NCBI RefSeq assembly: GCF_011745665.1
Contig: NZ_CP050253.1
Span: 35,418-99,417 of the forward strand
Direction: 5' to 3'
Source of the DNA: Zophobihabitans entericus
GTDB lineage: Bacteria > Pseudomonadota > Gammaproteobacteria > Enterobacterales > Orbaceae
DNA length: 64,000 bases
Under the pieces are notes generated by a model. It saw nothing but the letters and a program-made list of their open reading frames with translations. It did not search any database and was not told the origin of the DNA. Position 1 is the first letter of the stretch. Each line of letters starts with the position of its first letter. A program made the position numbers and the translations under genes. Of this stretch, positions 5,970 to 39,108 are shown piece by piece.

Positions 5970-8588
5970 CTAGAACGCATATTTCAAGCCAAGCAATACA
6001 CGAGAATCTTTATAATCATGCGAACCAATATTGTGTGAAAGATTCAACCAGGCAGAGAAGTTATCATTAAACTGGCCGTTAATCCCGGCTTTTAGCTGGA
6101 ACTGATGACGGCTACCGTTTTGTTCAACTGTAATATCATCCATATTGAATGAGAAGTTAGTCGAGCGCATGATGTAGTTTGTCTCAACGAACGGCTTATA
6201 AGCGATATCGTTATATAATCCTTCCATCATAAAACGCATACCTAAGCGCCCTTCAACCGTATTATCGTGATCATAGCTAATCACGGTACCGTTTTCTTCT
6301 ATGTGACCTTCCGGACGGGCATGCATCCAGATAACCTGAGCATTTGGCTGAATATAATATTTAAAGTCGCTATCACTTTGATCTAACTTAAATACATAAC
6401 CACTTTCCAGAGACATATTCAGACCACGGATTTTGTATGTTTCCGTCATCAGACCTTCACCAGATACTTTATTATCAGTCCAGGCATAGTTGAACCAGCT
6501 ATCAATATACAGGCCAGTTTTCTCTTCATCATTGGCAAACCAGTAACCATAAATACCTAAAGAGTAACCATCAGATGTACCAGTTGAGCGATAACCAGTG
6601 AGCTTGGAATCAGTATGACTACGTGTATAACCATAACCAGCCATTAAACCTAAATGTAGGGTATATTTTTTAGCTAAGGTAAAATGCGCCGCTTCAACAC
6701 CCATTTGAGTGACTAAATAGTTACTGCGATTTTTTAATTGTTCAGAACCACTCAGGTAACTATTACGACCGGCACGTTGATTTAACCAAAATGTAGTAGT
6801 ACGCACGTCTCCGGTAGCAATATCAACGTATTGACGTTCACCTGCACGATCGTTAAATGTTAAATTAAACATCGTATTGCTGGCGACTAAGTTAGTTAAA
6901 TAACTACCTACTTCCGGACGGAAATTAGGATTTTGCAGATCACCACTAGTCAGATACCAGTTATTGCTGCTTGTCGCTACACCATCACCACGGGTAATGT
7001 CGTACTCATAAGCACCAGCAATAATACGACCAGACTTAGTAAATTCGCCATCTGACTGACCTTGTACTTCAATAATCTCAATACCATTTTGAGTCTGTGC
7101 GCCGGTACCACCAATATTATTAATCTTAACAGCAGTCGTTCCTGATGTATCACCAGTGATAACTAATTTATCAGAATCCGACGTATCATCACCAAGCACG
7201 GTATTTAAAGTAATTTTTGCACCATCACCATGATAATCGGTAGTCACTGTCAGTGTTTTAAAGATCCCGTCATCATGATTATAAATTAAAGAGGAATTAT
7301 TCAGGCTAAGTTCTGTCACTGATGAATCACCCATCATCTCCCAGACAGAGTTGCCAGATAAATCAAAGTTAATAGTACCACCATTATTTGTCGCTGCGCC
7401 TTTTAAATAAGATGCACTATTAGCGGCAATATCAATAATGCCTGAGCTGCTAGCCAAAAAGTTACCATAAGCAACAAGACGAGCATTCTGTAACGTAATC
7501 GAGCTATTATTATCAGCAGTCATTGCTGTAATCGCGTTATTTTCTCTGTCATGCCCTAAAAAAGTATCACCATTCAGCGTGATAGAGGAATTGTTTGACG
7601 CTTGTACGTAGTAAGTATTACTAGAAAACTGATCGTCAGAGCTAACAAAGTCAATATAGGTTTTACCATTTGTAACCAATGAGCTGTTTAAAGCAGAGAC
7701 AAGACCTGCCACATTGTTAACATTTTTATCCATTTGAATGGTAATATCAGTATTGTTTAGCTCAATACTGCCCTTATTATAGGCTTCAATTCCGACGGCT
7801 TCTGTGGCATTATCTTTGGCATGAATTGTCAGAAGAAAGTCACCCTCTGATTTGAATTTTCCGCCTTTATTGATACCAACCCCATAAAATGCTGTAACCG
7901 CGTCTTCACCGATAATATTAAGCTCAGTTGAACCTAATAAATTAATTTCACCACTATACGCAATAATAGCTTGTGCATATGTCACATTTTTAGCAGTTAA
8001 ATTAATTAAGCTATCTTCAACAGTCAATGTGACTTTGTCAGAAGGTACGACAGCAGCTGAGGCAGCATTATCTCGAACATAATATGCCATTGCGATATAC
8101 ATATCTTCGACATTGAGTTCATTTTCTGTGAGACCTGTCAATGTGACATGATTAGATGTGACGTTCCCGGATGAAACCGCCGCCACAGTGGAAACATATC
8201 CACTACCACGCATGACGCCGTTATTTGAAGATTCTAAGGAAACATAGAGGTTATCCGCCTGGACAGAAGTGATCAGATTATTAAAACCACTTCTTAGACC
8301 ATAAAGATAATTAGTGCCCATTTCAGTTGCATAGATTTTAGATCCACTACCTAAATCAAGTTGTCCCTGACGAACATGTACTACAGAATCATTGATTTTG
8401 GCCTGACCTTCATTAGCGACAGTAATTGAACCATTATCCTGAATAGAGTGAACGTCAGCACCGGCAACAACGATAGAATCGAGTGTATCATTATTGTCAT
8501 GAACTACGACGGCAGCATGCGAAGGAATACTATAAAGAATAGCAAAAATCGCTATCGCCAGCGGACTTCTCTTTTTTTGATATTTCAA
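5970..8588 (-). CDS. Type Va autotransporter outer-membrane protein (adhesin-like passenger plus C-terminal beta-barrel translocator).
   Basis: Signal peptide (MKYQKKRSPLAIAIFAILYSIPSHA). Long Ser/Thr/Asn/Gly-rich repetitive beta-helical-type passenger. C-terminal beta-domain ending in an aromatic residue (…LGLKYAF). Confidence 0.8.
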   Translation of the reverse strand: MKYQKKRSPLAIAIFAILYSIPSHAAVVVHDNNDTLDSIVVAGADVHSIQDNGSITVANEGQAKINDSVVHVRQGQLDLGSGSKIYATEMGTNYLYGLRSGFNNLITSVQADNLYVSLESSNNGVMRGSGYVSTVAAVSSGNVTSNHVTLTGLTENELNVEDMYIAMAYYVRDNAASAAVVPSDKVTLTVEDSLINLTAKNVTYAQAIIAYSGEINLLGSTELNIIGEDAVTAFYGVGINKGGKFKSEGDFLLTIHAKDNATEAVGIEAYNKGSIELNNTDITIQMDKNVNNVAGLVSALNSSLVTNGKTYIDFVSSDDQFSSNTYYVQASNNSSITLNGDTFLGHDRENNAITAMTADNNSSITLQNARLVAYGNFLASSSGIIDIAANSASYLKGAATNNGGTINFDLSGNSVWEMMGDSSVTELSLNNSSLIYNHDDGIFKTLTVTTDYHGDGAKITLNTVLGDDTSDSDKLVITGDTSGTTAVKINNIGGTGAQTQNGIEIIEVQGQSDGEFTKSGRIIAGAYEYDITRGDGVATSSNNWYLTSGDLQNPNFRPEVGSYLTNLVASNTMFNLTFNDRAGERQYVDIATGDVRTTTFWLNQRAGRNSYLSGSEQLKNRSNYLVTQMGVEAAHFTLAKKYTLHLGLMAGYGYTRSHTDSKLTGYRSTGTSDGYSLGIYGYWFANDEEKTGLYIDSWFNYAWTDNKVSGEGLMTETYKIRGLNMSLESGYVFKLDQSDSDFKYYIQPNAQVIWMHARPEGHIEENGTVISYDHDNTVEGRLGMRFMMEGLYNDIAYKPFVETNYIMRSTNFSFNMDDITVEQNGSRHQFQLKAGINGQFNDNFSAWLNLSHNIGSHDYKDSRVLLGLKYAF

Positions 8589-8772
8589 TTTTCATCCAAC
8601 CCGTTGTTTTTATTATTTAATAGTTTTTATTATTGATTTTGGCCGTAATTATAACATTACTTATACAAAAGTAAAAAAATGGATAGGTATTATTCTTGTT
8701 TTGAAAAGAAATTGAAAAGGTGTTTATTTGCTGAACGCTGGGAGTGTCTTAATTAAAGGAGAATGATAAAAA

Positions 8773-8790
8773 CCCCCAATTAAACCCCCA
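8773..8790 (+). repeat. Copy 1 of the CCCCCAATTAAACCCCCA motif. It lies just outside the island's left junction.
   Basis: Exact 18-mer shared with 17103-17120. There is a near-identical copy at 9095-9112. Confidence 0.7.
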
Positions 8791-9011
8791 AATGATGCAT
8801 CTATTAAGCTGAAAGATGTCTTACTAACTTGGTTAATGGCTTGAGAGCTGTTAGCAAAAGGGATTACTCGTATCATCCTGATACTCGCCCTTTGGGCCGT
8901 TGCGCTGCAACGTTCAAAACTGTTCCCGACAGTTTTGTCAAACCTCCTTCGGAGGTTCTCATCCTCGGTAAACTTCAGGCGTAAAAAAACCTGCATAAAT
9001 GCAGGTTTCTC

Positions 9012-9038
9012 AAAATTGGTCGCGAGAGAGGATTCGAA
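9012..9038. repeat. attL-like direct repeat. It is a partial copy of the tRNA-Pro 3' end and forms the left boundary of the genomic island.
   Basis: aattggtcg-cgagagaggattcgaa matches aattggtcggcgagagaggattcgaa at 17226-17253 with one indel. Confidence 0.7.
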
Positions 9039-9094
9039 TTATTCAATTAACTTATTGTTTTATTTAAATATAAAATAATTAATTTTAGCTAAAA

Positions 9095-9112
9095 CCCCCA
9101 ATAAAACCCCCA
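9095..9112 (+). repeat. Copy 2 of the CCCCCAAT(A/T)AAACCCCCA motif. It lies just inside attL.
   Basis: cccccaataaaaccccca, 17/18 identical to the other two copies. Confidence 0.7.
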
Positions 9113-9173
9113 TTTACTTATTTAATTGAATATTGTGATATAAATCACTCTAAGCGATTAAATAACAGGCAAA

Positions 9174-9386
9174 TTATAGAAGTTCTTTTACATTAACGCT
9201 TAAACCCTTAGCAATAATATTAATCACTTCTAAAGTTGGGTTTCTTATGCCACGCTCAATACCACTAATATAGGTACGATCAAGCCCACACTTATCTGCG
9301 AACGCTTCTTGTGACATTCCCTGCTGTAATCGGAGTTGCCTAACTCTCTGTCCAAAAAGGACTTTTACTTTATCTGACTTTTCCAT
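9174..9386 (-). CDS. XRE-family HTH transcriptional repressor (70 aa), copy 1.
   Basis: Cro/C1-type HTH (LRLQQGMSQEAFADKCGLDRTYISGIERGIRNPTLEVI). About 80% identical to the paralog at 9746-9964. Confidence 0.8.
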   Translation of the reverse strand: MEKSDKVKVLFGQRVRQLRLQQGMSQEAFADKCGLDRTYISGIERGIRNPTLEVINIIAKGLSVNVKELL

Positions 9387-9414
9387 CAGATAAATATCAC
9401 ACTATGTTGATTAT

Positions 9415-9437
9415 TAGACCACGGACTATAAGTCACA
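9415..9437. promoter_or_regulatory. Putative operator (tagaccacggactataagtcaca) upstream of XRE copy 1, in the divergent XRE/Ner control region.
   Basis: The motif contains the palindrome GACTATAAGTC. An almost identical 23-mer recurs upstream of XRE copy 2 at 9993-10015. Confidence 0.5.
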
Positions 9438-9529
9438 TTTTATAAAATTCATGCTATTATGTTACTTATAGTCAACATAGTAAGTTTGACTAGTTAGAGG
9501 ATCTAGCAATTCATTAAGGAGTCATCAAT

Positions 9530-9781
9530 ATGGAAAAAGTAGACTGGCATTCATCAGATATTATTGCAGCATTTAAAAAACTGGATACAAGCCTTGCAGA
9601 GGTATCTCGTGCACAAGGTTATGCACCATCAACCTTAGCAAATGCACTTGTTAGACCATGGCCGAGGGGCGAAAAAATTATTGGGGCTGCTTTAGGGATA
9701 CCACCAGAAGAGATATGGCCGTCCAGATATGCCAGACGGTTAAAGCTAAAACTGAAAAAGCACGTCAAGTTTGACGTTTAA
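9530..9781 (+). CDS. Ner-like (Nlp/SfsB family) DNA-binding protein, divergent from the XRE repressor.
   Basis: DWHSSDIIAAFKKLDTSLAEVSRAQGYAPSTLANALVRPWPRGEKIIGAALGIPPEEIWPSRY closely matches phage Mu Ner and E. coli Nlp. The C-terminal tail of the ORF overlaps the next gene. Confidence 0.8.
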   Translation: MEKVDWHSSDIIAAFKKLDTSLAEVSRAQGYAPSTLANALVRPWPRGEKIIGAALGIPPEEIWPSRYARRLKLKLKKHVKFDV

Positions 9782-9964
9782 GCCATTAGCAATAGTATTA
9801 ATCACTTCGAGCGTAGGGTTTCTGACTCCACGCTCAATACCGCTAATATAGGTACGATCAAGTCCGCATTTATCTGCAAATGCTTCTTGTGACATACCAG
9901 CCTGTAAGCGAAGTTGTTTAACTCGCTGCCCGAAAAGGGACTTTATTTGATCTGCTCTTTTCAT
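9746..9964 (-). CDS. XRE-family HTH transcriptional repressor (72 aa), copy 2. It is a tandem paralog.
   Basis: HTH LRLQAGMSQEAFADKCGLDRTYISGIERGVRNPTLEVI. DNA is ~80% identical to 9174-9386, including the upstream operator. Confidence 0.8.
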   Translation of the reverse strand: MKRADQIKSLFGQRVKQLRLQAGMSQEAFADKCGLDRTYISGIERGVRNPTLEVINTIANGLNVKLDVLFQF

Positions 9965-9992
9965 GAGATCAGTATCAATTAATGATGCTTAT

Positions 9993-10015
9993 CAGACCAC
10001 GGACTATGAGTCACA
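9993..10015. promoter_or_regulatory. Second copy of the putative operator (cagaccacggactatgagtcaca), upstream of XRE copy 2.
   Basis: Near-identical to 9415-9437. Located 29 bp upstream of the XRE start. Confidence 0.5.
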
Positions 10016-10299
10016 AATAACTAATTGTTTTTAATCGCTCTCCTTAATTTTAAGCAGATTTATATGCTTAGAATTAAGGAGACAAATCCCTTAAATTAAT
10101 TTTTAAATTTCATTTTGAATTAATTCTCCTCACCCATTCATCACTTTGTTATCTTAATCATGCACAGAAAAATCACATGACCTGAAAGTGATGCAATAGC
10201 GGTCAATCCCTCTAGCTGTAAGTGTCTCTTGAAAGAACAGCATCACTAATGTGATTGGAGACCTCTTATACATAAACTCAATCAACAGGCGAATTCTGT

Positions 10300-10770
10300 C
10301 TGCTGATTCACATAACCACATTGCTTTTAGCAAATATGTACCCCGTGGTGGCTTCGCTACGTCTGGTGAATGCCGTTAAGACATAACCGGCGTGTGCGTT
10401 GCCACTGAACACGACACCAAGGCGTCACTTTTAAAAGCGGTTAGCGCGAAAAGTGACGCCGCATTCACACACCGTACAAACGCCCTTGTATTCACACTTG
10501 CGGCTAAGTATGCGATTTCTGACACACGCCATTTTGCGTTATTTCAACCATCAATCAATAAGGAGTAAAGCGAATCTGATATCGAGGCAGACATAAATGT
10601 CTGGAGGATGACTTGCGAAAGCAAGCGGCTGCACAGAGTGCACAACCGATACCTCACAACACCTCAACCATTGCCGCTCTGGCGTATCGGTATCATTCGT
10701 TGTATATGGCTGTTTAGCCATGTGTTATTTGCCGTACGCCAGAGAATCAATGTTTTAAGTGAGTAGATAA
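10300..10770. other. GC-rich (~50% against ~35% background), hairpin-rich non-coding block. It is a candidate structured ncRNA or a recombination/replication site.
   Basis: Stop codons occur in all frames. There is a 12-bp perfect stem GGCGTCACTTTT...AAAAGTGACGCC at 10421-10460. Palindrome CAGACATAAATGTCTG is at 10588-10603. Nested stems span 10681-10740. TTCACAC-like repeats are present. Confidence 0.35.
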
Positions 10771-10783
10771 TTAAAGGAGAGTT

Positions 10784-11659
10784 ATGGGAAGTTTAAAAGA
10801 CGAAATGACAAAACTGGCTTATCGGGCTGGTGGGAGCTTTAAAACAGTGAATGGCCGAATCACTATTGCTAAAAGATTGAGTGAGAATTTGTATAGACTA
10901 AATATACAAATACACCATGTTAAGCATTTGAAAGCCAAGCATGTTGTTAACTATATACAAGACCGTTTAACCCAAGGAATAGGTAAACGAACGCTGCAAA
11001 ATGAAATGGCGGCTATTCGTTCTATTCTGGTTCAGGCTGAACGGCATAAATTAGCAGAGTCGCCTATTCTGACTAATCAGGCTTTAGGGCTATCCCAAGC
11101 CAACAGAGACGGCACACATAAGGCTATTTCTGATAGACATTATGAACAAGTATTAATTCAGGCTGTGCAGATTAATAAAGGTTTTGCCTGCGCGCTGGAA
11201 CTCGCTTATCAGATGGGTTTGCGTTCTCAGGAAGCTGTTCAATGCTCACTGTCTTTAACAACATGGTTAACTATGTTAGAAAAAGAACAAACCCGATTAC
11301 CTGTGACGTTTGGCACAAAAGGCAGTAGACCACGAGAGACTCTGGTTCTCAATGCTGAGTTACTTAAACAGACTATCCAAAAAGCGCTAAGGGTAATGGA
11401 AGAACAAAAAGGTAAGTTGATTGATAAACCTGATTTAAAATCGGCTATGGCTTACTGGCGACGAACAGCCATAAAGGTAAATTTAAAAGGGGAATACTCC
11501 CCACATAGCTTACGCTATGCGTGGGCACAAAGGGCTTTACAGCATTACCAAGAAAAAGGCTTTAGTCATAAAGAATCATTGGCTTTAGTTTCTATGGATT
11601 TGGGGCATGGTGATGGGCGTGGGAGATATGTGGAGAGGGTTTATAATTTAATAAAATAA
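10784..11659 (+). CDS. Tyrosine-recombinase-fold protein (291 aa). It is the second recombinase-like gene in the island.
   Basis: Conserved recombinase boxes: GLRSQEA (box I Arg), HSLRYAWA (H-x-x-R box II), and LGHGDGRGRYVERVY (catalytic Tyr). Confidence 0.5.
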   Translation: MGSLKDEMTKLAYRAGGSFKTVNGRITIAKRLSENLYRLNIQIHHVKHLKAKHVVNYIQDRLTQGIGKRTLQNEMAAIRSILVQAERHKLAESPILTNQALGLSQANRDGTHKAISDRHYEQVLIQAVQINKGFACALELAYQMGLRSQEAVQCSLSLTTWLTMLEKEQTRLPVTFGTKGSRPRETLVLNAELLKQTIQKALRVMEEQKGKLIDKPDLKSAMAYWRRTAIKVNLKGEYSPHSLRYAWAQRALQHYQEKGFSHKESLALVSMDLGHGDGRGRYVERVYNLIK

Positions 11660-11791
11660 AATTTTATATATCAGATAATTAAAGAAATTAAGATCATTTT
11701 CCTTAAATATATACGATTAAATAAATTTCATGTAACTTATAACACCATAAGCTCAAATGTATACCGATTATCGTAATCAACACTGTATATA

Positions 11792-12571
11792 ATGCAAGCT
11801 TTTATTTTAGGCTTTGATAATTTCATTAACTATCTGTTTATTAAAATTTCAAAACAAGGGAATAAGATGAGAAAAATTATTGTGACAGATTTAACAAGAT
11901 TCTCCACCGATGAAAAGGTATGTATTGCAGCTATTGATATAAGCACAGGAGAATGTTTTCGTCCTATGCCATATATTAAAAGTGCTAAATGTAAAGCATT
12001 AAAAATACACCCAGGAGCAATCTTCGTTGGTGTTCTTGACTTTAAAAAACCTAAAGAAGCCCCTCATGTTGAAGATGCCAGTTATTCAAAATTAGGTTTT
12101 AGCCGAGCATGCAGTAGTGAGGAATTTAGAATGGTTCTAGAGAATTCTTTAACTAATTCAATCTCTAAAGGATTTGGTTTTACTTTTGAAAAAGGCCAAA
12201 AGCATATTCCTAGCAATCAAAAGGTTCATTGCTCAATAATTACAATTAAAATAAACCCAAAACAACTAAGTATTTTTGAAGATCAGTTTAAAGCAGGTAA
12301 AATCAAAGCCACCTTGATAGATAATGATGGGCAAGTATTTAGCTATCTACCCATAACTGATAGAGGTTTTCACGATTATGCTAAAAAGCACCAAGACAAT
12401 GGAAAACTAAATGAAATTACAGAGTTTATTTCTAATCAGGAGATTATTTACTTAAGGATTGGACTAAGCCGTGCTTATCAATCACCTAATGGTAAGAGTG
12501 GGTATTGGTTACAGATTAATGGTATTTATACATATCCTAATTTTCATGAGGAAATAAGAGCATATGACTAA
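11792..12571 (+). CDS. Hypothetical protein, first gene of a three-gene operon. The likely true start is 11867 (MRKIIVTDL..., 234 aa) with an AAGGGA RBS.
   Basis: No recognisable domains. It is translationally coupled to the downstream DUF488 gene by an ATGA overlap. Confidence 0.55.
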   Translation: MQAFILGFDNFINYLFIKISKQGNKMRKIIVTDLTRFSTDEKVCIAAIDISTGECFRPMPYIKSAKCKALKIHPGAIFVGVLDFKKPKEAPHVEDASYSKLGFSRACSSEEFRMVLENSLTNSISKGFGFTFEKGQKHIPSNQKVHCSIITIKINPKQLSIFEDQFKAGKIKATLIDNDGQVFSYLPITDRGFHDYAKKHQDNGKLNEITEFISNQEIIYLRIGLSRAYQSPNGKSGYWLQINGIYTYPNFHEEIRAYD

Positions 12572-13022
12572 AGAAATAGTAGCTAATATTTATACTATAG
12601 GATTTACAAAAAAAAGTGCTCAAACATTTTTTAATTTTATAAAATTATCAAATGTGGCTACTGTATTAGATGTACGACTAAATAATATTTCTCAACTAGC
12701 AGGATTTGCTAAAAAAGATGATCTTCAGTTTTTCCTGAAAGAACTCTGCAATACAAATTACATGCATTTACCTGAATTAGCCCCAACAAAAGAAATATTA
12801 AATCCTTATCAAAAAGGTGATATTTCTTGGCTTGCTTATGAAGATAAATTTCTAAATTTGATGGCTCAACGTAATGTGGAAAAATCAATATCTTCTAAGA
12901 TATTAGAGAATAGCTGTTTATTATGTAGTGAACATGAACCACATTTCTGTCATAGGCGGTTAGTTGTTGATTATTTAAATGAACATTCAAACCTTAAATT
13001 GAACGTTAGGCATTTATATTAA
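12564..13022 (+). CDS. DUF488-family protein (152 aa).
   Basis: Starts IYTIGFT... Has the C-terminal hallmark CLLCSEHEPHFCHRRLVVDYL, the C-x-E-x-x-P-x-x-CHR motif of DUF488 (YeaO-like). GAGGAAA RBS. Overlaps both neighbouring genes. Confidence 0.7.
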   Translation: MTKEIVANIYTIGFTKKSAQTFFNFIKLSNVATVLDVRLNNISQLAGFAKKDDLQFFLKELCNTNYMHLPELAPTKEILNPYQKGDISWLAYEDKFLNLMAQRNVEKSISSKILENSCLLCSEHEPHFCHRRLVVDYLNEHSNLKLNVRHLY

Positions 13023-13645
13023 TGAATAAAATTTTATTGCTTTACCCAAAATCATTTAAATGTTACTCAAAATTTTTTCGTAAAGTGGAAAAGATTATAA
13101 GTAAGTTAGACCTTGTGACTATATTATTTTTAGAGGATTCTAATAATTTTATTTCCAGATTATCAAAAGAAAGTATGCATATTAAGGAAATAAAAAAATT
13201 ATCAAATTGGTCAATAAATAATATCACACATGCAATTATTTTTGATGATGGTGAAGAGTTTCCAGAAGAGGTAAAACAGATAGAATCTTTAAATATTCCT
13301 CTTCGTTATATTAAAATCGCCATCACTCGGGTTGTAAATATAAAAAATGAAATTGAGTACACCTCAGAAAAAAGTACCTCTACATATGAATATATAGGCA
13401 GAGGATCTTATTGGGGAAATCCTTATTCAATCTATGAAGTAGAAGATCTAGATAAAGGAGAAACCCCTAGAGAAAATGTAATCAGAAAATTCAAATATGA
13501 TTTCGAACATGATTGCTTATTGAATCGAGATAAAAATAAAGTATATGAACTTGCTGGAAAACGTCTAGGTTGCTTTTGTAAACCTGAAGCTTGCCATGGT
13601 GATGTTATCGCTGATTTTTTAAACTCTTGGGATGATGAAAAGTAA
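13022..13645 (+). CDS. Two-domain protein (207 aa): an unknown N-terminal domain plus a C-terminal DUF4326 domain.
   Basis: Carries the DUF4326 signature motifs GNP (YWGNPYS) and CHG (CFCKPEACHGDVIADFL). The start codon overlaps the upstream stop (TAATG). Confidence 0.65.
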   Translation: MNKILLLYPKSFKCYSKFFRKVEKIISKLDLVTILFLEDSNNFISRLSKESMHIKEIKKLSNWSINNITHAIIFDDGEEFPEEVKQIESLNIPLRYIKIAITRVVNIKNEIEYTSEKSTSTYEYIGRGSYWGNPYSIYEVEDLDKGETPRENVIRKFKYDFEHDCLLNRDKNKVYELAGKRLGCFCKPEACHGDVIADFLNSWDDEK

Positions 13646-13729
13646 TTTTAAATTAATAGGATAAAATAAGCACAGTCTTGATTTTAGCTCCAGCTTGCCT
13701 TAGAGAGCACTTTTCAATATTAATTACAT

Positions 13730-14059
13730 TTATAATGTTATAACTATTTGATAACGACCACTCATTTTTTGTGACTTACCCCAAATTATTAATGCATTAT
13801 CACTTGTATTATATTCATAGGCTTGATAATCCCTTGATAAATCAAGATGAAAATTATCTGGGATCAATTCTCCACTTTCCATGAGCTGTATATTGCCACC
13901 ATGGTAGCCATTTCGGATAAACTTGACTGTTGTTTTTTCAAAAGCATTTCTAATTTTACTTTTGTAGTTAATAAATCCTTCAAATTCACAGTTTCCATAT
14001 GAATCTGTTCGTAGATTATTTTGGCTTATAAATTCAGTCATTGCTAATATTGATTTCAT
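13730..14059 (-). CDS. Hypothetical protein (109 aa) immediately downstream of the OLD-family nuclease gene.
   Basis: GAGGAAA Shine-Dalgarno 6 nt upstream of the ATG. Sits 36 bp after the OLD gene stop on the same strand. No recognisable domain. Confidence 0.5.
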   Translation of the reverse strand: MKSILAMTEFISQNNLRTDSYGNCEFEGFINYKSKIRNAFEKTTVKFIRNGYHGGNIQLMESGELIPDNFHLDLSRDYQAYEYNTSDNALIIWGKSQKMSGRYQIVITL

Positions 14060-14095
14060 TCATCTTTCCTCGTTGTAAGGGCATCTTATCCCAAC

Positions 14096-15745
14096 TTAAC
14101 TATCTAGTTTTTCAAGCTCACTAATATCTGTATATAACCCTGAATGAGAGTTATCAATAATAGAGCTTAAGGCATTTCGAAGAAGTTCATACTTAGGAGA
14201 TTCTTCAAAGTGGTCTGAATTTAAGTGTTTCATTAAATTATACGGTTTATCCTTAGATATTGACTCGTTAAAATAGAATCCCTCAAAATCTGGATAATGT
14301 ACAACGGTTTGAACTCTTCCCTCCGTTTGATCTGCTGCCTCTCTGATATTTATATTGATTGTTCTCATTGGGTTTTTACGTCCGCTTTTATCATACTCCG
14401 AGTCAAGATCATGGATAGCTATTGCTGTCGCTTTAAATTGATTAAATATCTTTATAAAAGATGGAATATTAGCCTTTCCTCTACAGTTAATTACACAATG
14501 AGAATCGTTTAAAGATAGTTTATCGATAAGATATTGATATGCTAAATATTCAGTATCACCTTCAACTAAAATAGATTTCTGATAAAAGAAAAATTCATTT
14601 ACTGTAGGGCAGCATCTATTCAGCATTTTTAAATTATCCTTTTCATCATCTGTGAAATTGGCTTTATCTGTTTGAAAGTAATAGATTTTATCAGGGCTAT
14701 TAGACACTTTAATGAGAGTGGTGTGATTTTGTGCTAAATCGATAAATATTGGAGAGTGTGTAGTACAAATAATTTGCCAGCCGTCAACTTCAGCTAGTGC
14801 GTAAATTGCTTTTCGTGCAGCTTTTATAACTGCTGGATGCAAGTTTATTTCAGGTTCATCAATTAATAATATTTTCGGTTTATCACTACTTATCAATTTC
14901 TTACTTTGAATAAATAAATTTTCACTACATAAAGCATTTATTGCTGACCACAAAAATGCTCTCTGAACACCAGATCCTTGACTGGATAGGGACGTTGAAC
15001 ACCCATTACTTTGTATATTGAATTTACTTCCGTCTTTAATTATATCTTCTGTTTTTAACTTCCCAACACCGCAATCAAATGAAACAGAAATACCAGAAAA
15101 AACTTTATTTAACTCACTTTGAATTTTTTCATTAACTTGAGAAATATTACCAGATAGCTCTACTTTGACTTCTTGAGCCAGATCTTCAATTTTTTCAATA
15201 ATATTTGCTAATTTAGAATTATCATTTTTGAGTTTCTCTGACACTTTTTTAGACACTAGATCTTTTACAATCTTTTCTAGGGAGTCGTAATCGTCATTGG
15301 GGTTGATTCTTATTGGAGTTGGTAACCGACTTTGTAATAATGTATCCCAACCTCCAGCCCCTCCTTTTTTCCAATCATTAGTATCTTTACTGAAACTATA
15401 TTTTTGTCCTTTTTCATTAGGTGCTTCCCAACGGACTTGAAACTTAGCACAAGTTCCAAAATTAGGATCATTAGCTAAAACCCACTCTTGACCAATTGTT
15501 TTTTGATCTTCTTCTGTAATATCAACAAAAACACCAGTAATCAAGATAGTATTACTACTATCTTGATTATGAAAATATTCTATACTTAATGCCGACCCCA
15601 TTGATACATACGCTTCGTATGCGTCCAGAATTGTAGACTTACAGCAATTATTTGGTCCAATCAAAACAACAATGTTATCCATCAAAATTGTTACTTCGTC
15701 GGAGATTCCTTTAAAATTAGAAATTAATAATGCAGCAAGTTTCAT
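14096..15745 (-). CDS. OLD-family (overcoming lysogenization defect) ATP-dependent nuclease. It has an ABC-type ATPase (AAA_15/21) plus a C-terminal Toprim domain, and is a class-1 OLD or PARIS-like single-gene form.
   Basis: Walker A is GPNNCCKST, ABC signature is SQGSGVQRAF, Walker B is ILLIDEPEINLHP, and the H-loop is TTHSP. Toprim motifs are ILVEGDTEYLAY and IAIHDLDSEYD. Size (549 aa) matches P2 Old. Confidence 0.8.
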   Translation of the reverse strand: MKLAALLISNFKGISDEVTILMDNIVVLIGPNNCCKSTILDAYEAYVSMGSALSIEYFHNQDSSNTILITGVFVDITEEDQKTIGQEWVLANDPNFGTCAKFQVRWEAPNEKGQKYSFSKDTNDWKKGGAGGWDTLLQSRLPTPIRINPNDDYDSLEKIVKDLVSKKVSEKLKNDNSKLANIIEKIEDLAQEVKVELSGNISQVNEKIQSELNKVFSGISVSFDCGVGKLKTEDIIKDGSKFNIQSNGCSTSLSSQGSGVQRAFLWSAINALCSENLFIQSKKLISSDKPKILLIDEPEINLHPAVIKAARKAIYALAEVDGWQIICTTHSPIFIDLAQNHTTLIKVSNSPDKIYYFQTDKANFTDDEKDNLKMLNRCCPTVNEFFFYQKSILVEGDTEYLAYQYLIDKLSLNDSHCVINCRGKANIPSFIKIFNQFKATAIAIHDLDSEYDKSGRKNPMRTININIREAADQTEGRVQTVVHYPDFEGFYFNESISKDKPYNLMKHLNSDHFEESPKYELLRNALSSIIDNSHSGLYTDISELEKLDS

Positions 15746-15814
15746 TTGGTATCCCTATGAATAAATGTATTATCTAAACAGTATAATAACATGAAGTTTT
15801 TATACTGTTATAAT

Positions 15815-17071
15815 TTATTCAAACTCATAAGGCGCAACAAACCCAACTTTGTTTGCGTCTAAATAATCAGCCCACCATTGCATCATGCGTTTACGCTCAT
15901 CAATAAACTGTGCCTTGTGAATATAAGCAGCTCTGACGCTGTTACGCTCTTGATGGCTCATTTGTCTTTCTATCGCATCTGTTGACCACTGCCCTGACTC
16001 ATTCAGTGCACCACAAGCAATAGTCCTTAAACCATGCCCGCAAATCTCAGTTTGAGTGTCATAACCCAATCTACGCAATGCCTGATTAATCGTATTTTCA
16101 CTCAATGGTCTGTGCGGTCTGCCCAAACAAGGAAAGATCAATTCATTCTCACCTGTCATTTCCTGTACTTCCCTAAACAAGCTCACCGCCTGAGTTGATA
16201 AAGGTACTAAATACTCACTCATCTTTGCGCCACGGTAAGAATATCGAACACCTTCAAGTGGCTCTCTGTTATCTGGAATAATCCACATAGCACGCTCGAG
16301 ATCGATCTCATTCCAACGGGCAAGGCGTAATTCACTTGAACGAACAAACAGGTAAATATTGAGTTTTAGCGCTAATAAGGTGAGTTGTCTGGCTCTGCCT
16401 TGACTATATAGATCGATACGCTCAAAAAGCTCAGGCAAACGCTCTAATGGTAAGGCTGGATAATGCTTTTTCTTTGGTGACTGAACAGCCCCTTGCAGAT
16501 CGAGCGCTGGGTTATATTCAATAATTCCATTTTGCAGAGCATAACGCATAATAGAAGTTAGACAGTATTTCAGGCGAATAACCGTATCAAGATAACCCTT
16601 TCTTTCAACCGCTTTCAAAGCCAGAAGAAGATCCTGAGTTTTTAAGCTCACCACTAGGCGATTTTTTAATACAGGAAAAAGGTAGGTTTCAATTGCCCGA
16701 ACAATGGAATGTGAATAACTTTCAGACCAACCCGATAATTTACCCTGATAAATCCACCATGATCGCGCAGTTTCTTCAAAGCGTTTACCCACTTGTCGAG
16801 CTACTTTTTCTTTTTGTTTTTCAGCTCCGGGATCAATAGATTGGCTGAGTAAGGTTTTAGCCTCTTCACATAGTTTACGTGCGGCAGATAAGGAAACTGT
16901 TGGATAAGCACCATAAGCAAGGCGTTTTTCTTTTCCATCAAAACGGTACTTCTGATACCAGAGTTTCGAACCAGAGGGGTTGATTATAATGTGCAGTCCA
17001 AAACCGTCACTGAGTTTATAGGGCTTGCTTCGAGGCTTGGCATTACGGATAGCAACGTCTGTTAGCGCCAT
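15815..17071 (-). CDS. int: P4-type tyrosine integrase (site-specific recombinase). The probable start is at 17071 (MALTDVAIRNAKP...). The ORF track extends it to 17137.
   Basis: N-terminal DUF4102-like arm-binding region (ALTDVAIRNAKPRSKPYKLSDGFGLHIIINPSGSKLWYQKYRF). C-terminal catalytic domain (…HGLRTIACGAL…, Y in …SVRAAYIHK). AGGAG RBS. Adjacent to the tRNA-Pro 3' end. Confidence 0.9.
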   Translation of the reverse strand: MALTDVAIRNAKPRSKPYKLSDGFGLHIIINPSGSKLWYQKYRFDGKEKRLAYGAYPTVSLSAARKLCEEAKTLLSQSIDPGAEKQKEKVARQVGKRFEETARSWWIYQGKLSGWSESYSHSIVRAIETYLFPVLKNRLVVSLKTQDLLLALKAVERKGYLDTVIRLKYCLTSIMRYALQNGIIEYNPALDLQGAVQSPKKKHYPALPLERLPELFERIDLYSQGRARQLTLLALKLNIYLFVRSSELRLARWNEIDLERAMWIIPDNREPLEGVRYSYRGAKMSEYLVPLSTQAVSLFREVQEMTGENELIFPCLGRPHRPLSENTINQALRRLGYDTQTEICGHGLRTIACGALNESGQWSTDAIERQMSHQERNSVRAAYIHKAQFIDERKRMMQWWADYLDANKVGFVAPYEFE

Positions 17072-17102
17072 TGGGGGTCTCCTGAAAATTGGGCTGTAAA
17101 GA

Positions 17103-17120
17103 CCCCCAATTAAACCCCCA
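17103..17120 (+). repeat. Copy 3 of the CCCCCAATTAAACCCCCA motif. It lies ~32 bp upstream of the integrase start, inside attR.
   Basis: Exact 18-mer identical to 8773-8790. Confidence 0.7.
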
Positions 17121-17230
17121 CATAGTGTGGCTGTCAAAGGTAGTTCATGGACTTTATAGGACGAAGAAGATTTGTAACTTGTTGATTTTTTTTAATCTAA
17201 GGACTTCGCTGGAAGTCCTCGGAAGAGAAT

Positions 17231-17307
17231 TGGTCGGCGAGAGAGGATTCGAACCTCCGACCCACTGGTCCCAAACCAGTTGCGCTACCAAGCTGCGCTA
17301 CTCGCCG
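17231..17307 (-). tRNA. tRNA-Pro (anticodon UGG).
   Basis: The reverse complement folds as a canonical cloverleaf: acceptor CGGCGAG/CTCGCCG, D-stem GCGC, anticodon loop TTTGGGA, T-loop TTCGAAT, 3' ACCA. It is identical to the E. coli proM-type sequence. Confidence 0.95.
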
Positions 17308-38988: not shown

Positions 38989-39048
38989 ATGTTAATACAA
39001 AATACCTTTACAGCAAACTTATGGTGGCACATCACACTTAACGGGTGA
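38989..39048 (+). CDS. trpL: trp leader peptide (19 aa) with tandem Trp codons.
   Basis: Encodes MLIQNTFTANLWWHITLNG. The tandem TGG TGG codons sit ahead of an attenuator terminator. Confidence 0.8.
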   Translation: MLIQNTFTANLWWHITLNG

Positions 39049-39083
39049 TGTGTTTTGCTGTACTTAGATTTTATCTTACACAA

Positions 39084-39108
39084 GCCCGCAAATTGCGGGC
39101 TTTTTTAT
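39084..39108 (+). terminator. trp attenuator (rho-independent terminator).
   Basis: gcccgcaa-att-tgcgggc hairpin followed by TTTTTTATT, located between trpL and trpE. Confidence 0.8.

What the first reader, a model, noticed from the sequence alone, without database searches (positions are those of the whole stretch)
10300..11659. GC-rich, hairpin-dense 470-bp non-coding block directly upstream of a second tyrosine-recombinase-like gene.
GC content is about 50% against a ~35% background, and all six frames are closed. There is a perfect 12-bp stem (GGCGTCACTTTT / AAAAGTGACGCC, 10421-10460) with a 16-nt loop. The palindrome CAGACATAAATGTCTG is at 10588-10603. A nested stem-loop spans 10681-10740. 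TTCACAC-like short repeats are also present. It abuts a 291-aa protein with R…HxxR…Y recombinase boxes. It could be the recombination site for that enzyme, an origin with iterons (satellite or plasmid-like replication), or a structured regulatory ncRNA.
Basis: seen in the sequence. Interest (0 to 1): 0.6.

Follow-up and report, generated by a model that had tools for sequence, protein, structure and literature searches.

The report
EFASI RNA leader of island mobilisation gene
The GC-rich block contains a full copy of the already catalogued but functionally unexplained EFASI RNA motif and a conserved hairpin, and it sits in front of an integrase-like gene from the family of the SGI1 relaxase MpsA, so it is most likely the transfer-origin and RNA part of the mobilisation module of a small defence-gene island.

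Summary
Window 10300-10783 is GC-rich, has no ORF longer than 58 aa, and folds better than shuffles. Its core (10570-10699, + strand) is a full-length match to Rfam EFASI (104.6 bits; threshold 51.2). The 291-aa gene is Pfam Integrase_1 (PF12835). I show here that the SGI1 atypical relaxase MpsA also belongs to this family.

Comparison with about 78 related loci adds two features that the Rfam model does not cover:
- The 12-bp hairpin (10421-10460) is present in 74 of 78 loci. Its lower stem is nearly invariant and its tip covaries.
- A covarying 9-11 bp stem (10677-10687 with 10734-10744) crosses EFASI helix P1 and gives a pseudoknot topology.

The whole unit lies in an 8.2-kb island bounded by tRNA-Pro repeats. 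The island also carries a P4-type integrase, HTH regulators and defence cargo.

The layout matches the SGI1 module (oriT, then sgm-sRNA, then mpsA) almost position for position, but no sequence similarity to the SGI1 non-coding DNA was detected.

Best reading (about 0.55): this is a mobilisation module of the tyrosine-recombinase-like relaxase type. Transfer-origin activity and any RNA role are inferred, not shown. The iteron-origin idea is rejected.

Verdict: a new member of a known kind, of moderate interest.

The parts
10359..10393 (+). HP0: degenerate counterpart of a hairpin (TTGCTATGCC-loop-GGCAT..GCAA) that is conserved upstream of HP1 in relatives
   Evidence: Alignment of 77 upstream regions and comparison with Serratia fonticola. 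In the window itself the fold is not significant (z = -0.46).
10421..10460 (.). HP1: perfect 12-bp stem with a 16-nt loop. The lower stem CGTCAC/GTGACG is nearly invariant and the apical part forms its own variable stem. It is a candidate protein-recognised inverted repeat of the transfer origin.
   Evidence: I4. Present in 74 of 78 loci at -373..-285, with 48 unique variants that all fold as an extended hairpin. Apical segments are more self-complementary than shuffles (mean z = -1.96; 23 of 46 at p<=0.05). DNA fold z = -4.5. No Rfam family covers it.
10518..10525 (+). Conserved 8-mer TCTGACAC between HP1 and EFASI (candidate recognition or nick region; role unknown)
   Evidence: Exact in 50 of 78 loci at -279..-230, against 2 of 234 control windows. 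Conserved in alignments.
10560..10565 (+). Conserved Shine-Dalgarno-like AAGGAG a few nt before EFASI helix P1. No conserved start codon or reading frame follows it.
   Evidence: Seen in 64 of 78 loci. Alignment A3, columns 55-65.
10570..10699 (+). EFASI RNA motif (Rfam RF02957), full length: P1 (10571-10584 with 10688-10699), P2 hairpin (10588-10603), GAGG/CCUC helix (10604-10607 with 10652-10655), two inner hairpins (10612-10625, 10626-10648)
   Evidence: cmscan 104.6 bits (gathering score 51.2), E = 1.4e-20, model positions 1-133. Helices covary across 77 sequences. Helix P1 has 88 G-U cells against 25 A-C cells, which favours folding of the + strand.
10677..10744 (+). P5: a newly noted long-range stem (10677-10687 with 10734-10744). 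It encloses the 3' strand of P1 and a variable hairpin (10706-10721). It crosses P1 (H-type pseudoknot topology) and extends beyond the 3' end of the Rfam model.
   Evidence: RNAalifold predicts it independently. Nine core pairs are 97-100% paired, with compensatory changes at 4 positions (UA/CG 58:19 and 39:36; CG/UA 69:8). DNA fold z = -4.6. The inner hairpin shows a compensatory swap against Serratia.
10784..11659 (+). 291-aa Integrase_1 (PF12835) plus Phage_int_SAM_2 protein: a tyrosine-recombinase fold in the MpsA (MOB_M-type relaxase) family
   Evidence: Pfam 182 and 113 bits. Invariant R147, K179, H241-x-x-R244, H275 and Y287. MpsA hits PF12835 at 43.5 bits. BLASTP to MpsA E = 1e-4. hhalign probability 94%. 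AF2 model pLDDT 88, with best folds XerA, Tn1549 Int, lambda Int, XerH and Cre.
9174..9964 (.). Regulator cluster of the island: two paralogous XRE HTH_3 genes (9174-9386 and 9746-9964, both on the - strand) and an HTH_35 gene (9530-9781, + strand). The same trio lies in front of the block in Serratia relatives.
   Evidence: (D1).
9013..9038 (.). Distal attachment-site repeat (25 of 26 identical to the 3' part of tRNA-Pro)
   Evidence: (D5).
11867..15745 (.). Cargo slot: DuOB, DUF488 (PADLOC PDC-M45C), mSLOG-DUF4326, a 109-aa ORF, and an OLD-family ATPase-TOPRIM nuclease
   Evidence: The same slot holds other cargo in relatives.
15815..17137 (-). Island integrase (P4-type: Arm-DNA-bind_3, Phage_int_M, Phage_integrase)
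17231..17307 (-). tRNA-Pro(tgg), the integration site. It contains the proximal att repeat at 17228-17253.

Best explanation
The block is the non-coding half of a mobilisation module that belongs to an 8.2-kb integrative mobilisable island at tRNA-Pro.

Proposed mechanism (inferred):
- The 291-aa protein is a tyrosine-recombinase-like relaxase of the MpsA / MOB_M kind.
- It acts on a transfer origin that lies directly upstream of its own gene. That origin includes the sequence-invariant hairpin HP1 and the TCTGACAC motif.
- A helper conjugative element supplies the mating pore.
- The + strand is transcribed through the block into the relaxase gene. Its EFASI domain, which here also carries a 3' pseudoknot stem, either matures into an RNA needed for transfer, as sgm-sRNA does in SGI1, or tunes relaxase expression.

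Shown here:
- EFASI family membership.
- Conservation and covariation of HP1, the EFASI helices and P5.
- Fixed spacing between these elements.
- The protein's membership of the same Pfam family as MpsA.
- The island borders, and the recurrent island layout with a variable defence cargo.

Inferred, not shown: nicking at this origin, mobilisation, the existence and ends of the transcript, and any role of the RNA.
For: 1. EFASI matches at full length, 104.6 bits.

2. The protein is PF12835. SGI1 MpsA, retrieved here as L082, also hits PF12835 (43.5 bits). It aligns to the window protein (BLASTP E = 1e-4) and to the clade profile (hhalign 94%). PF12835 is used in the literature as the signature of MpsA-like 'INT_DTR_like' proteins (PMC10484663).

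3. For all three characterised relaxases of this type, oriT lies directly upstream of the gene and is rich in inverted repeats: SGI1 125 bp, GC-rich (PMC6414798); pIGRK within a 456-bp region and pCW3 151 bp (PMC8152469).

4. The layout matches SGI1 (SGI1 coordinates):
- SGI1 oriT at -304..-428; window HP1 at -363..-324.
- SGI1 sgm-sRNA core at about -30..-300; window EFASI at -214..-85.
- SGI1 inverted repeat at -17..-43; window P5 at -107..-40.

5. HP1, TCTGACAC and EFASI are conserved with constrained spacing, 98-118 nt. The lower stem of HP1 is invariant in sequence while its tip and the EFASI helices covary. This is the pattern expected for a protein-recognised hairpin.

6. The island is bounded by att repeats, has its own integrase and no mating-pore genes. 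Relatives repeat the layout next to tRNA genes with different cargo.

7. A 2026 preprint reports that MOB_M relaxases are abundant in chromosomes, often annotated as integrases, located near integrases, and found in MPF_G ICEs or relaxase-only islands. STAXI, EFASI's frequent neighbour, is typical of MPF_G ICEs. In E. coli, all 736 homologous places are chromosomal.

8. In some loci P5 ends about 20 nt before the start codon, which leaves no room for a separate promoter. The gene must therefore be transcribed through EFASI in those loci.
Against: - No experiment on any member of the EFASI-associated clade was found. Relaxase function is extrapolated from MpsA at 24% identity.
- The Rfam EFASI model does not hit the SGI1 sgm-sRNA region at E<=10, and I saw no sequence similarity between the two origin regions. 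The parallel is therefore positional only.
- There is no separate MpsB-like gene. The N-terminal SAM-like domain is fused to the protein.
- No sigma-70-like promoter was found in 9900-11900.
- HP0 and the TCTGACAC region do not fold significantly in the window.
- A catalytically complete tyrosine recombinase could equally be a true recombinase.
- I could not apply the preprint's MOB_M profile.
Confidence: 0.55

Rival explanations
1. EFASI plus P5 is only a cis-acting 5' leader that controls translation or stability of the Integrase_1 mRNA. The enzyme is a conventional site-specific recombinase (for example for island resolution or stabilisation), with HP1 as an operator or RNA-processing hairpin. 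Conjugation is not involved.
For: EFASI is always on the gene's strand, at -210..-62. In some loci P5 ends about 20 nt before the start codon. G-U pairs favour the sense strand. The catalytic residues of a full recombinase are conserved. The fold is closest to Xer, lambda Int and Cre.
Against: The protein shares its Pfam family and motifs with MpsA. No second HP1-like site is available for recombination. The invariant stem sequence of HP1 and its fixed distance from EFASI are not needed for a leader. The family's association with conjugative and mobilisable elements would be left unexplained.
Confidence: 0.2
2. The conserved structures act as folded single-stranded DNA of the transferred strand and not as RNA. 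They could be a priming site or a single-strand promoter used on entry into the recipient, with 'EFASI' a DNA structure mistaken for an RNA.
For: The block sits where a transfer origin is expected. STAXI, its frequent neighbour, was itself suggested to act as ssDNA (Rfam text quoted in PMC12370729). Covariation cannot tell RNA from ssDNA. HP1 is stable with DNA parameters.
Against: P1 tolerates many G-U pairs (88 cells), which are weaker in DNA. EFASI signal was detected by RT-qPCR in E. coli vesicle RNA (PMC12370729; not strand-specific). In SGI1 the equivalent region acts as a diffusible RNA (PMC9299015).
Confidence: 0.12
3. HP1 or the whole block is the recombination site of the 291-aa enzyme: an attP-like site, or a folded integron-attC or CTX-like site used to capture the variable cargo downstream.
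For: The invariant inverted repeat resembles paired recombinase-binding arms. Cargo between the gene and the island integrase varies between relatives. Tyrosine recombinases that act on folded hairpins are known (established knowledge).
Against: The spacer between the arms varies from 8 to 21 nt and is itself paired, unlike a 6-8 bp crossover region. There is no second copy in the island or window apart from a degenerate, non-significant repeat at 10139-10193. Nothing similar flanks the cargo genes.
Confidence: 0.08
4. The block is a replication origin with iterons for a plasmid-like or satellite replicon.
For: Non-coding DNA of unusual composition containing two ATTCACAC copies.
Against: No tandem or regularly spaced repeats. 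The 8-mer is at chance frequency and is not conserved. There is no Rep gene in the island. There is no AT-rich unwinding element inside the block.
Confidence: 0.02

Closest known systems
EFASI RNA motif (Rfam RF02957; Weinberg et al. 2017, PMC5737381)
   Same: Full-length match well above the gathering score, same helices, same position upstream of and on the strand of an Integrase_1 gene.
   Different: The host is Orbaceae (Orbales), outside the Enterobacteriaceae named in the family description. There is no STAXI upstream. I find a covarying 3' stem (P5) that crosses P1, and a conserved hairpin about 108 nt upstream (HP1). Neither is in the Rfam model.
SGI1 mobilisation module: oriT, sgm-sRNA, mpsA, mpsB (PMC6414798, PMC9299015)
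   Same: The relaxase-like gene is in the same Pfam family. A GC-rich, inverted-repeat-rich segment lies 300-430 nt upstream. A structured RNA-coding segment lies between that segment and the gene, on the same strand. An inverted repeat lies just before the gene. The module is carried by an integrative element with its own separate integrase.
   Different: Protein identity is 24%. No similarity was detected between the non-coding parts. MpsB is absent as a separate gene, because the N-terminal domain is fused. There is no S021/S022 and no T4SS genes. No experimental evidence exists for this clade.
MobK/oriT of pIGRK and TcpM/oriT of pCW3 (tyrosine-recombinase-like relaxases; PMC8152469)
   Same: An integrase-annotated gene has its transfer origin in the IR-rich region directly upstream, and that region has a GC content unlike the rest of the element.
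   Different: These are plasmid-borne. No RNA partner has been described. I did not compare their sequences directly.
STAXI RNA motif (RF01728)
   Same: Occurs in the same islands, upstream of EFASI, in 3 of the 8 relatives scanned (at -933..-680). Typical of MPF_G ICEs.
   Different: Absent from the window. It is distinct from HP0 and HP1, which lie between STAXI and EFASI.
Integron attC / CTX attP folded single-strand recombination sites
   Same: A conserved imperfect hairpin lies next to a tyrosine-recombinase-fold gene, and the neighbouring cargo is variable.
   Different: There is only a single copy, no cassette-flanking sites, and the gene family is different.

Membership tests
EFASI RNA (Rfam RF02957) | Covariance-model score at or above the curated gathering score, over the whole model | tested here: met
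   104.6 bits against 51.2, model positions 1-133 of 133, window 10570-10699 on the + strand.
EFASI RNA (Rfam RF02957) | Located upstream of an integrase gene | tested here: met
   It ends 85 nt before the start of the PF12835 gene, on the same strand. The same holds in 8 of 8 relatives scanned.
EFASI RNA (Rfam RF02957) | STAXI motif several hundred bp upstream (frequent, not obligatory) | tested here: not met
   No STAXI at the gathering score anywhere in the window, nor at E<=10 in 9900-11000. Present in 3 of 8 relatives.
EFASI RNA (Rfam RF02957) | Found in Enterobacteriaceae | tested here: not met
   The host is Zophobihabitans entericus, Orbaceae. The relatives collected span several families of Enterobacterales. 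This widens the known range and does not exclude membership.
EFASI RNA (Rfam RF02957) | Expressed as an RNA | not testable with these tools
   Only indirect evidence: excess of G-U pairs on the + strand, and RT-qPCR signal for an E. coli EFASI (PMC12370729).
Integrase_1 (PF12835) / MpsA-like MOB_M relaxases | Pfam PF12835 above the gathering score | tested here: met
   182.3 bits (cut-off 23), plus PF12834 at 113.5 bits.
Integrase_1 (PF12835) / MpsA-like MOB_M relaxases | Detectable homology to a characterised member (SGI1 MpsA) | tested here: met
   MpsA (L082:2231-3196, - strand) hits PF12835 at 43.5 bits. BLASTP E = 1e-4, 24% identity over 272 aa. hhalign probability 94%.
Integrase_1 (PF12835) / MpsA-like MOB_M relaxases | Conserved catalytic Arg, Lys, His-x-x-Arg, His and C-terminal Tyr | tested here: met
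   R147, K179, H241, R244, H275 and Y287 are invariant in 16 sequences. Their assignment to catalytic roles is by analogy with tyrosine recombinases.
Integrase_1 (PF12835) / MpsA-like MOB_M relaxases | Score of 84 or more with the MOB_M profile of the 2026 preprint | not tested
   The profile (Dataset S2 of 10.64898/2026.01.13.699239) is not available here.
Integrase_1 (PF12835) / MpsA-like MOB_M relaxases | IR-rich transfer origin directly upstream of the gene | tested here: inconclusive
   A conserved hairpin and motifs lie at the expected place. Origin activity cannot be tested, and there is no sequence similarity to oriT of SGI1.
Integrase_1 (PF12835) / MpsA-like MOB_M relaxases | Nicking and mobilisation activity | not testable with these tools
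   Needs mating and nicking assays.
Integrase_1 (PF12835) / MpsA-like MOB_M relaxases | Separate MpsB-type partner gene downstream (SGI1 type only) | tested here: not met
   The next gene is a DuOB-domain protein. The SAM-like N-terminal domain is part of the 291-aa protein.
sgm-sRNA of SGI1 | Encoded between oriT and the relaxase gene, on the gene's strand | tested here: met
   Positional comparison only: window EFASI at -214..-85, SGI1 core at about -30..-300.
sgm-sRNA of SGI1 | Sequence or structure similarity | tested here: not met
   The EFASI model gives no hit at E<=10 on L082 1800-4400 on either strand. The sequences are unlike by eye.
Integrative mobilisable element | Flanking att repeats, own integrase, no mating-pore genes | tested here: met
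   25 of 26 nt repeat at 9013-9038 and 17228-17253. P4-type integrase. All island ORFs are accounted for and none is a T4SS gene.
Iteron-type replication origin | Three or more regularly spaced direct repeats plus an adjacent Rep gene | tested here: not met
   No Rep gene.
Paired recombination site (att/attC type) | A second copy of the site within reach | tested here: not met
   Only the two arms of HP1 match with 1 mismatch or fewer inside the island. The degenerate repeat at 10139-10193 is not significant.

The most novel reading that the evidence does not exclude
EFASI, extended by the P5 pseudoknot stem and coupled at fixed distance to HP1, is the general RNA partner of tyrosine-recombinase-type relaxases. 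It would be the widespread counterpart of SGI1's sgm-sRNA. Under this reading, conjugative mobilisation of a large class of chromosomal islands depends on a structured RNA in the relaxosome. Homologues of the gene occur in about 11% of complete E. coli genomes and across Enterobacterales and Orbales, and many of the islands carry defence systems.
Probability: 0.3. Interest if true: 0.75.

Novelty: new member of a known kind. Interest (0 to 1): 0.42.

Why it matters
EFASI has been an orphan RNA motif since 2017. RNA-dependent mobilisation is known from a single element, SGI1. Tyrosine-recombinase-like relaxases have only recently been recognised as common in chromosomes.

This locus puts the three together in a compact 8.2-kb island. 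The island holds only an integrase, three small regulators, the block, the relaxase-like gene and defence cargo. That makes it a convenient minimal system for two tests: whether the block is a transfer origin, and whether EFASI is required in trans.

The two structural additions, hairpin HP1 and stem P5, would also improve the family model. If the reading is right, it explains how small defence islands of this type spread between Enterobacterales and an insect-gut Orbaceae.

Tried and rejected
- Rfam search for STAXI or any other family in the block. Only EFASI passed; the other matches were sub-threshold and treated as chance.
- Coding potential. ORFs are 58 aa or shorter, frames are broken by indels in relatives, and the AAGGAG before EFASI is not followed by a conserved start codon.
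- Iterons and tandem repeats. None found.
- Sigma-70 promoter and terminator scan of 9900-11900. No promoter-like site was found, and no + strand terminator after EFASI.
- Search for a second HP1 or TCTGACAC site as a recombination partner. None found.
- EFASI model against the SGI1 mob region. No hit. The SGI1 core folds only weakly better than shuffles (z = -1.79).
- DNA-level search of plasmids with the window block. Only the gene's 3' part matched.
- Search for E. coli copies of the block without the gene. None seen among the 40 rows sampled across the ranking.
- Sequence search of PDB with the clade profile. No hit. Only fold-level similarity to tyrosine recombinases was found.
- The paper that localises oriT of SGI-4 (DNA Research 2025) is not held. 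I could not check whether that experimentally mapped origin contains EFASI or HP1.
- Looking up the preprint's seed accessions among cluster members did not identify them.
- Wobble-pair counting to assign a strand to P5 is inconclusive, because there are too few non-Watson-Crick cells in the core pairs.
Full report
**1. Observation**

The block is real. GC content in 200-nt windows is 0.445-0.495 across 10300-10799 and 0.25-0.38 on either side. Only ORFs of 42-58 aa overlap it.

The 12-bp perfect stem at 10421-10432/10449-10460 is present and is far more stable than shuffles (DNA parameters, z = -4.5). The palindrome at 10588-10603 is present. The 'nested stem-loop' is real, but its conserved form is 10677-10687 paired with 10734-10744, around an inner hairpin at 10706-10721. 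The whole stretch 10340-10750 folds better than all 100 shuffles (z = -3.99).

The 'TTCACAC repeats' are two copies of an 8-mer that occurs at chance frequency in the window. Tandem Repeats Finder finds nothing in the block.

**2. What the core is**

Rfam finds a full-length EFASI RNA (RF02957) at 10570-10699 on the + strand: 104.6 bits against a gathering score of 51.2, E = 1.4e-20.

EFASI stands for 'Enterobacteriaceae, Frequently Around STAXI and Integrases'. It was found by comparative genomics and has no known function (Rfam text quoted in PMC12370729; source paper PMC5737381). No STAXI is present in the window.

The adjacent 291-aa protein is Pfam Integrase_1 (PF12835, 182 bits) with an N-terminal Phage_int_SAM_2 domain. 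An identical protein is recorded from Zophobihabitans entericus. That species is an Orbaceae, so this copy lies outside the taxonomic range given for EFASI.

**3. Comparison with relatives**

I collected 80 loci that encode relatives of the protein (54-59% identity) from genomes of Enterobacterales. I added one E. coli locus and two Serratia fonticola loci at about 80% identity.

Conservation upstream of the gene is confined to discrete patches. In window coordinates these are:
- a weak patch at 10354-10380;
- the hairpin HP1 at 10421-10460;
- TCTGACAC at 10518-10525;
- an AGGAG motif at 10560-10565;
- EFASI;
- a patch at 10732-10745.

*HP1.* It is present in 74 of 78 loci at -373..-285 from the start codon, in 48 distinct versions. 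The lower stem (CGTCAC/GTGACG) is almost invariant. The closing pairs and the apical part change, and the apical part nearly always forms its own small stem with different sequences. Apical segments have mean z = -1.96 against shuffles, and 23 of 46 are significant at 5%. The loop length of 8-21 nt rules out a simple dimer operator on duplex DNA. The pattern fits a hairpin whose stem is read sequence-specifically.

*TCTGACAC.* It is exact in 50 of 78 loci, against 2 of 234 control windows.

*Spacing.* HP1 lies 98-118 nt (median 108) before EFASI helix P1. These parts therefore form one unit.

**4. An addition to EFASI**

On a MAFFT alignment of 77 distinct sequences (A3), RNAalifold predicts a stem between window 10677-10685 and 10736-10744. 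The 5' arm is annotated as unpaired in the Rfam model. The 3' arm lies beyond the model's end.

Counting pairs for a structure that holds both this stem (P5) and the Rfam helices gives the following:
- Nine P5 core pairs are 97-100% paired, with compensatory changes at four positions (UA/CG 58:19 and 39:36; CG/UA 69:8).
- The P1 core also covaries (CG/UA 52:22).
- The structure beats all slid controls (81.6% of cells paired against 29-47%).

P1 and P5 cross each other, so together they have the topology of an H-type pseudoknot. Alternatively, they may form at different times.

P1 has 88 G-U cells against 25 A-C cells, which points to folding of the + strand. For P5 the numbers are too small to decide.

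In five loci the 3' arm of P5 ends about 20 nt before the start codon. There the gene must be transcribed through EFASI.

**5. Context**

A 25 of 26 nt repeat of the 3' part of tRNA-Pro lies at 9013-9038. It delimits an 8.2-kb island, 9039-17230. The island holds:
- two paralogous XRE genes and an HTH_35 gene;
- the block and the Integrase_1 gene;
- a cargo of DuOB, DUF488 (PADLOC PDC-M45C) and mSLOG-DUF4326 genes and an OLD-family nuclease;
- a P4-type integrase next to the tRNA.

The two Serratia islands have the same order: HTH_3 / HTH_35 / HTH_3, about 1 kb of non-coding DNA, Integrase_1, cargo, P4-type integrase. Their cargo differs: an SMC-like 986-aa protein in one, and DUF3644 + reverse transcriptase + STM3845 in the other. 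An E. coli locus and a Salmonella locus carry DUF4297, or a methyltransferase-ParA-SIR2 set, downstream of the gene.

In 18 of 60 loci a tRNA gene on the opposite strand lies 1.6-7 kb downstream of the gene. In E. coli, 609 of 5426 complete genomes have a DNA-level homologue. All 736 places are chromosomal.

In the three-way alignment the window keeps HP1 through P5 at high identity but lacks segments that Serratia has further upstream. HP1-to-P5 therefore looks like the core.

**6. Link to mobilisation**

SGI1 is mobilised through a module made of a 125-bp GC-rich, inverted-repeat-rich oriT, the genes mpsA and mpsB, and an essential small RNA. That RNA, sgm-sRNA, has its functional part encoded between oriT and mpsA (PMC6414798, PMC9299015). 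MpsA is a tyrosine-recombinase-like atypical relaxase.

I recovered an SGI1 fragment using primer sequences from the paper's supplement and tested the link directly:
- MpsA hits PF12835 above threshold (43.5 bits).
- It aligns with the window protein (E = 1e-4, 24% identity).
- It aligns with the clade profile (hhalign 94%, including the shared GTKGGRxR and LEL..GLR..E motifs).

PF12835 is used elsewhere as the signature for MpsA-like proteins (PMC10484663). A 2026 preprint reports that relaxases of this type (MOB_M: TcpM, MobK, MpsA) are the most common in chromosomes. It also reports that they are often annotated as integrases, lie near an integrase in 96% of cases, and occur in MPF_G ICEs or in relaxase-only islands. 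STAXI, the frequent neighbour of EFASI, is typical of MPF_G ICEs. For MobK and TcpM, too, oriT is the IR-rich region directly upstream of the gene.

The geometry agrees, counted from the start codon:

| Element | SGI1 | Window |
|---|---|---|
| oriT / HP1 | -304..-428 | -363..-324 |
| sgm-sRNA core / EFASI | about -30..-300 | -214..-85 |
| IR before the gene / P5 | -17..-43 | -107..-40 |

The AF2 model of the protein (pLDDT 88) is a two-domain tyrosine-recombinase fold. It is closest to XerA, Tn1549 Int, lambda Int, XerH and Cre. XerH and Cre are also the templates reported for MpsA.

**7. Limits of the parallel**

- The EFASI model does not hit the SGI1 region.
- The two non-coding regions are unlike in sequence.
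- There is no separate mpsB.
- Identity to MpsA is low.
- I found no experiment on the EFASI-associated clade.
- I found no promoter-like site in 9900-11900.
- HP1 could instead correspond to the terminator-like GC-rich inverted repeat that controls the SGI1 primary transcript.

The assignment 'HP1 = part of oriT' is therefore an inference. It rests on position and on the invariance of the stem sequence.

**8. Verdict**

- The 'structured ncRNA' reading is right, and the RNA is an already catalogued family.
- The 'site for the enzyme' reading is probably right in the sense of a transfer origin and not a recombination site.
- The iteron-origin reading is rejected.

The most likely function is the non-coding part of a MOB_M-type mobilisation module in a small island that carries defence genes (confidence about 0.55). 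The main rival is a purely cis-acting leader of a conventional recombinase gene (about 0.2).

The locus is a new member of a known kind, in a new bacterial order. Two structural additions, HP1 and P5, and a testable hypothesis for the function of EFASI come out of the comparison.

Noticed in passing
window 9013-9038 and 17228-17253: A 25 of 26 nt direct repeat of the tRNA-Pro 3' part delimits an 8.2-kb genomic island (9039-17230). The finding lies in the middle of this island.
   Followed up: yes
window 8767-8793, 9089-9115, 17097-17123: Three copies of a 27-nt motif, TAAAAACCCCCAATTAAACCCCCAAAT (81-100% identity). Two lie just inside the island ends. One lies about 250 nt outside the distal end. 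They may be arm-type integrase sites. The outside copy hints at a remnant of an earlier or tandem island.
   Followed up: no
window 9193-9437 and 9771-10015: A 245-nt duplication at 80% identity. The two XRE HTH genes and their upstream regions are paralogous copies. The upstream part (9965-10017) is also conserved in a Serratia fonticola island (L090).
   Followed up: partly
window 10039-10082: A 21-nt-arm near-perfect palindrome (90% complementary, 2-nt gap) lies in the AT-rich region between the XRE gene and the block. It gives a sub-threshold Rfam '23S-methyl' match (35 bits against 50), which is probably chance. It could be an operator or a terminator-like hairpin.
   Followed up: no
window 10139-10147 and 10185-10193: CATCACTTT / AAAGTGATG is a 9-bp perfect inverted repeat that differs by one base per arm from the HP1 arms. 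It has a 37-nt AT-rich loop. The fold is not significant (z = -1.29). It may be a decayed second HP1 or chance.
   Followed up: partly
window 11867-15745: The cargo looks like anti-phage defence. It comprises an OLD-family ATPase-TOPRIM nuclease (PADLOC Old, E = 5e-82) and a DuOB / DUF488 (PDC-M45C, E = 3e-64) / mSLOG-DUF4326 gene trio with overlapping or abutting reading frames.
   Followed up: partly
L089 9149-12109; L090 9009-12217; L001 7288-10166; L088 10069-13083: In relatives, the slot downstream of the Integrase_1 gene holds different cargo: an SMC_N 986-aa protein; DUF3644 + reverse transcriptase + STM3845; DUF4297; and a methyltransferase-ParA-SIR2 set. In the two Serratia loci (L089, L090) a P4-type integrase closes the slot, as in the window. 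This suggests a family of small islands with an exchangeable defence slot.
   Followed up: partly
L002, L005, L008, L010, L012, L029, L073 (for example L012 9256-9343): C4 antisense RNA, and often isrK RNA, lie 150-480 nt downstream or about 2 kb upstream of the Integrase_1 gene in 7 of 8 relatives scanned. L016 has a radC RNA motif. None of these is in the window.
   Followed up: no
L090 about 7680-7805 (alignment A4 columns 845-969): One Serratia island has an insertion of about 125 nt between the TCTGACAC motif and the AGGAG/EFASI start. The fixed HP1-EFASI spacing is therefore not absolute.
   Followed up: no
window 10560-10565 and the equivalent position in 64 of 78 loci: A Shine-Dalgarno-like AGGAG is conserved a few nt before EFASI helix P1. 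No conserved start codon or reading frame follows it. Its role is unexplained.
   Followed up: partly
window 39016-39108: Rfam Trp_leader match just at threshold (41.5 bits against 41), in front of what looks like the trp operon. Ordinary chromosomal feature.
   Followed up: no
plasmid records NZ_CP084289.1 (8.2 kb), NZ_CP029827.1 (15 kb), NZ_CP072795.1 (22 kb): Small plasmids of Caballeronia, Burkholderia and Thiothrix, typed 'non-mobilizable', encode 31-33% identical Integrase_1 proteins. They are candidates for unrecognised MobK-like relaxases.
   Followed up: no
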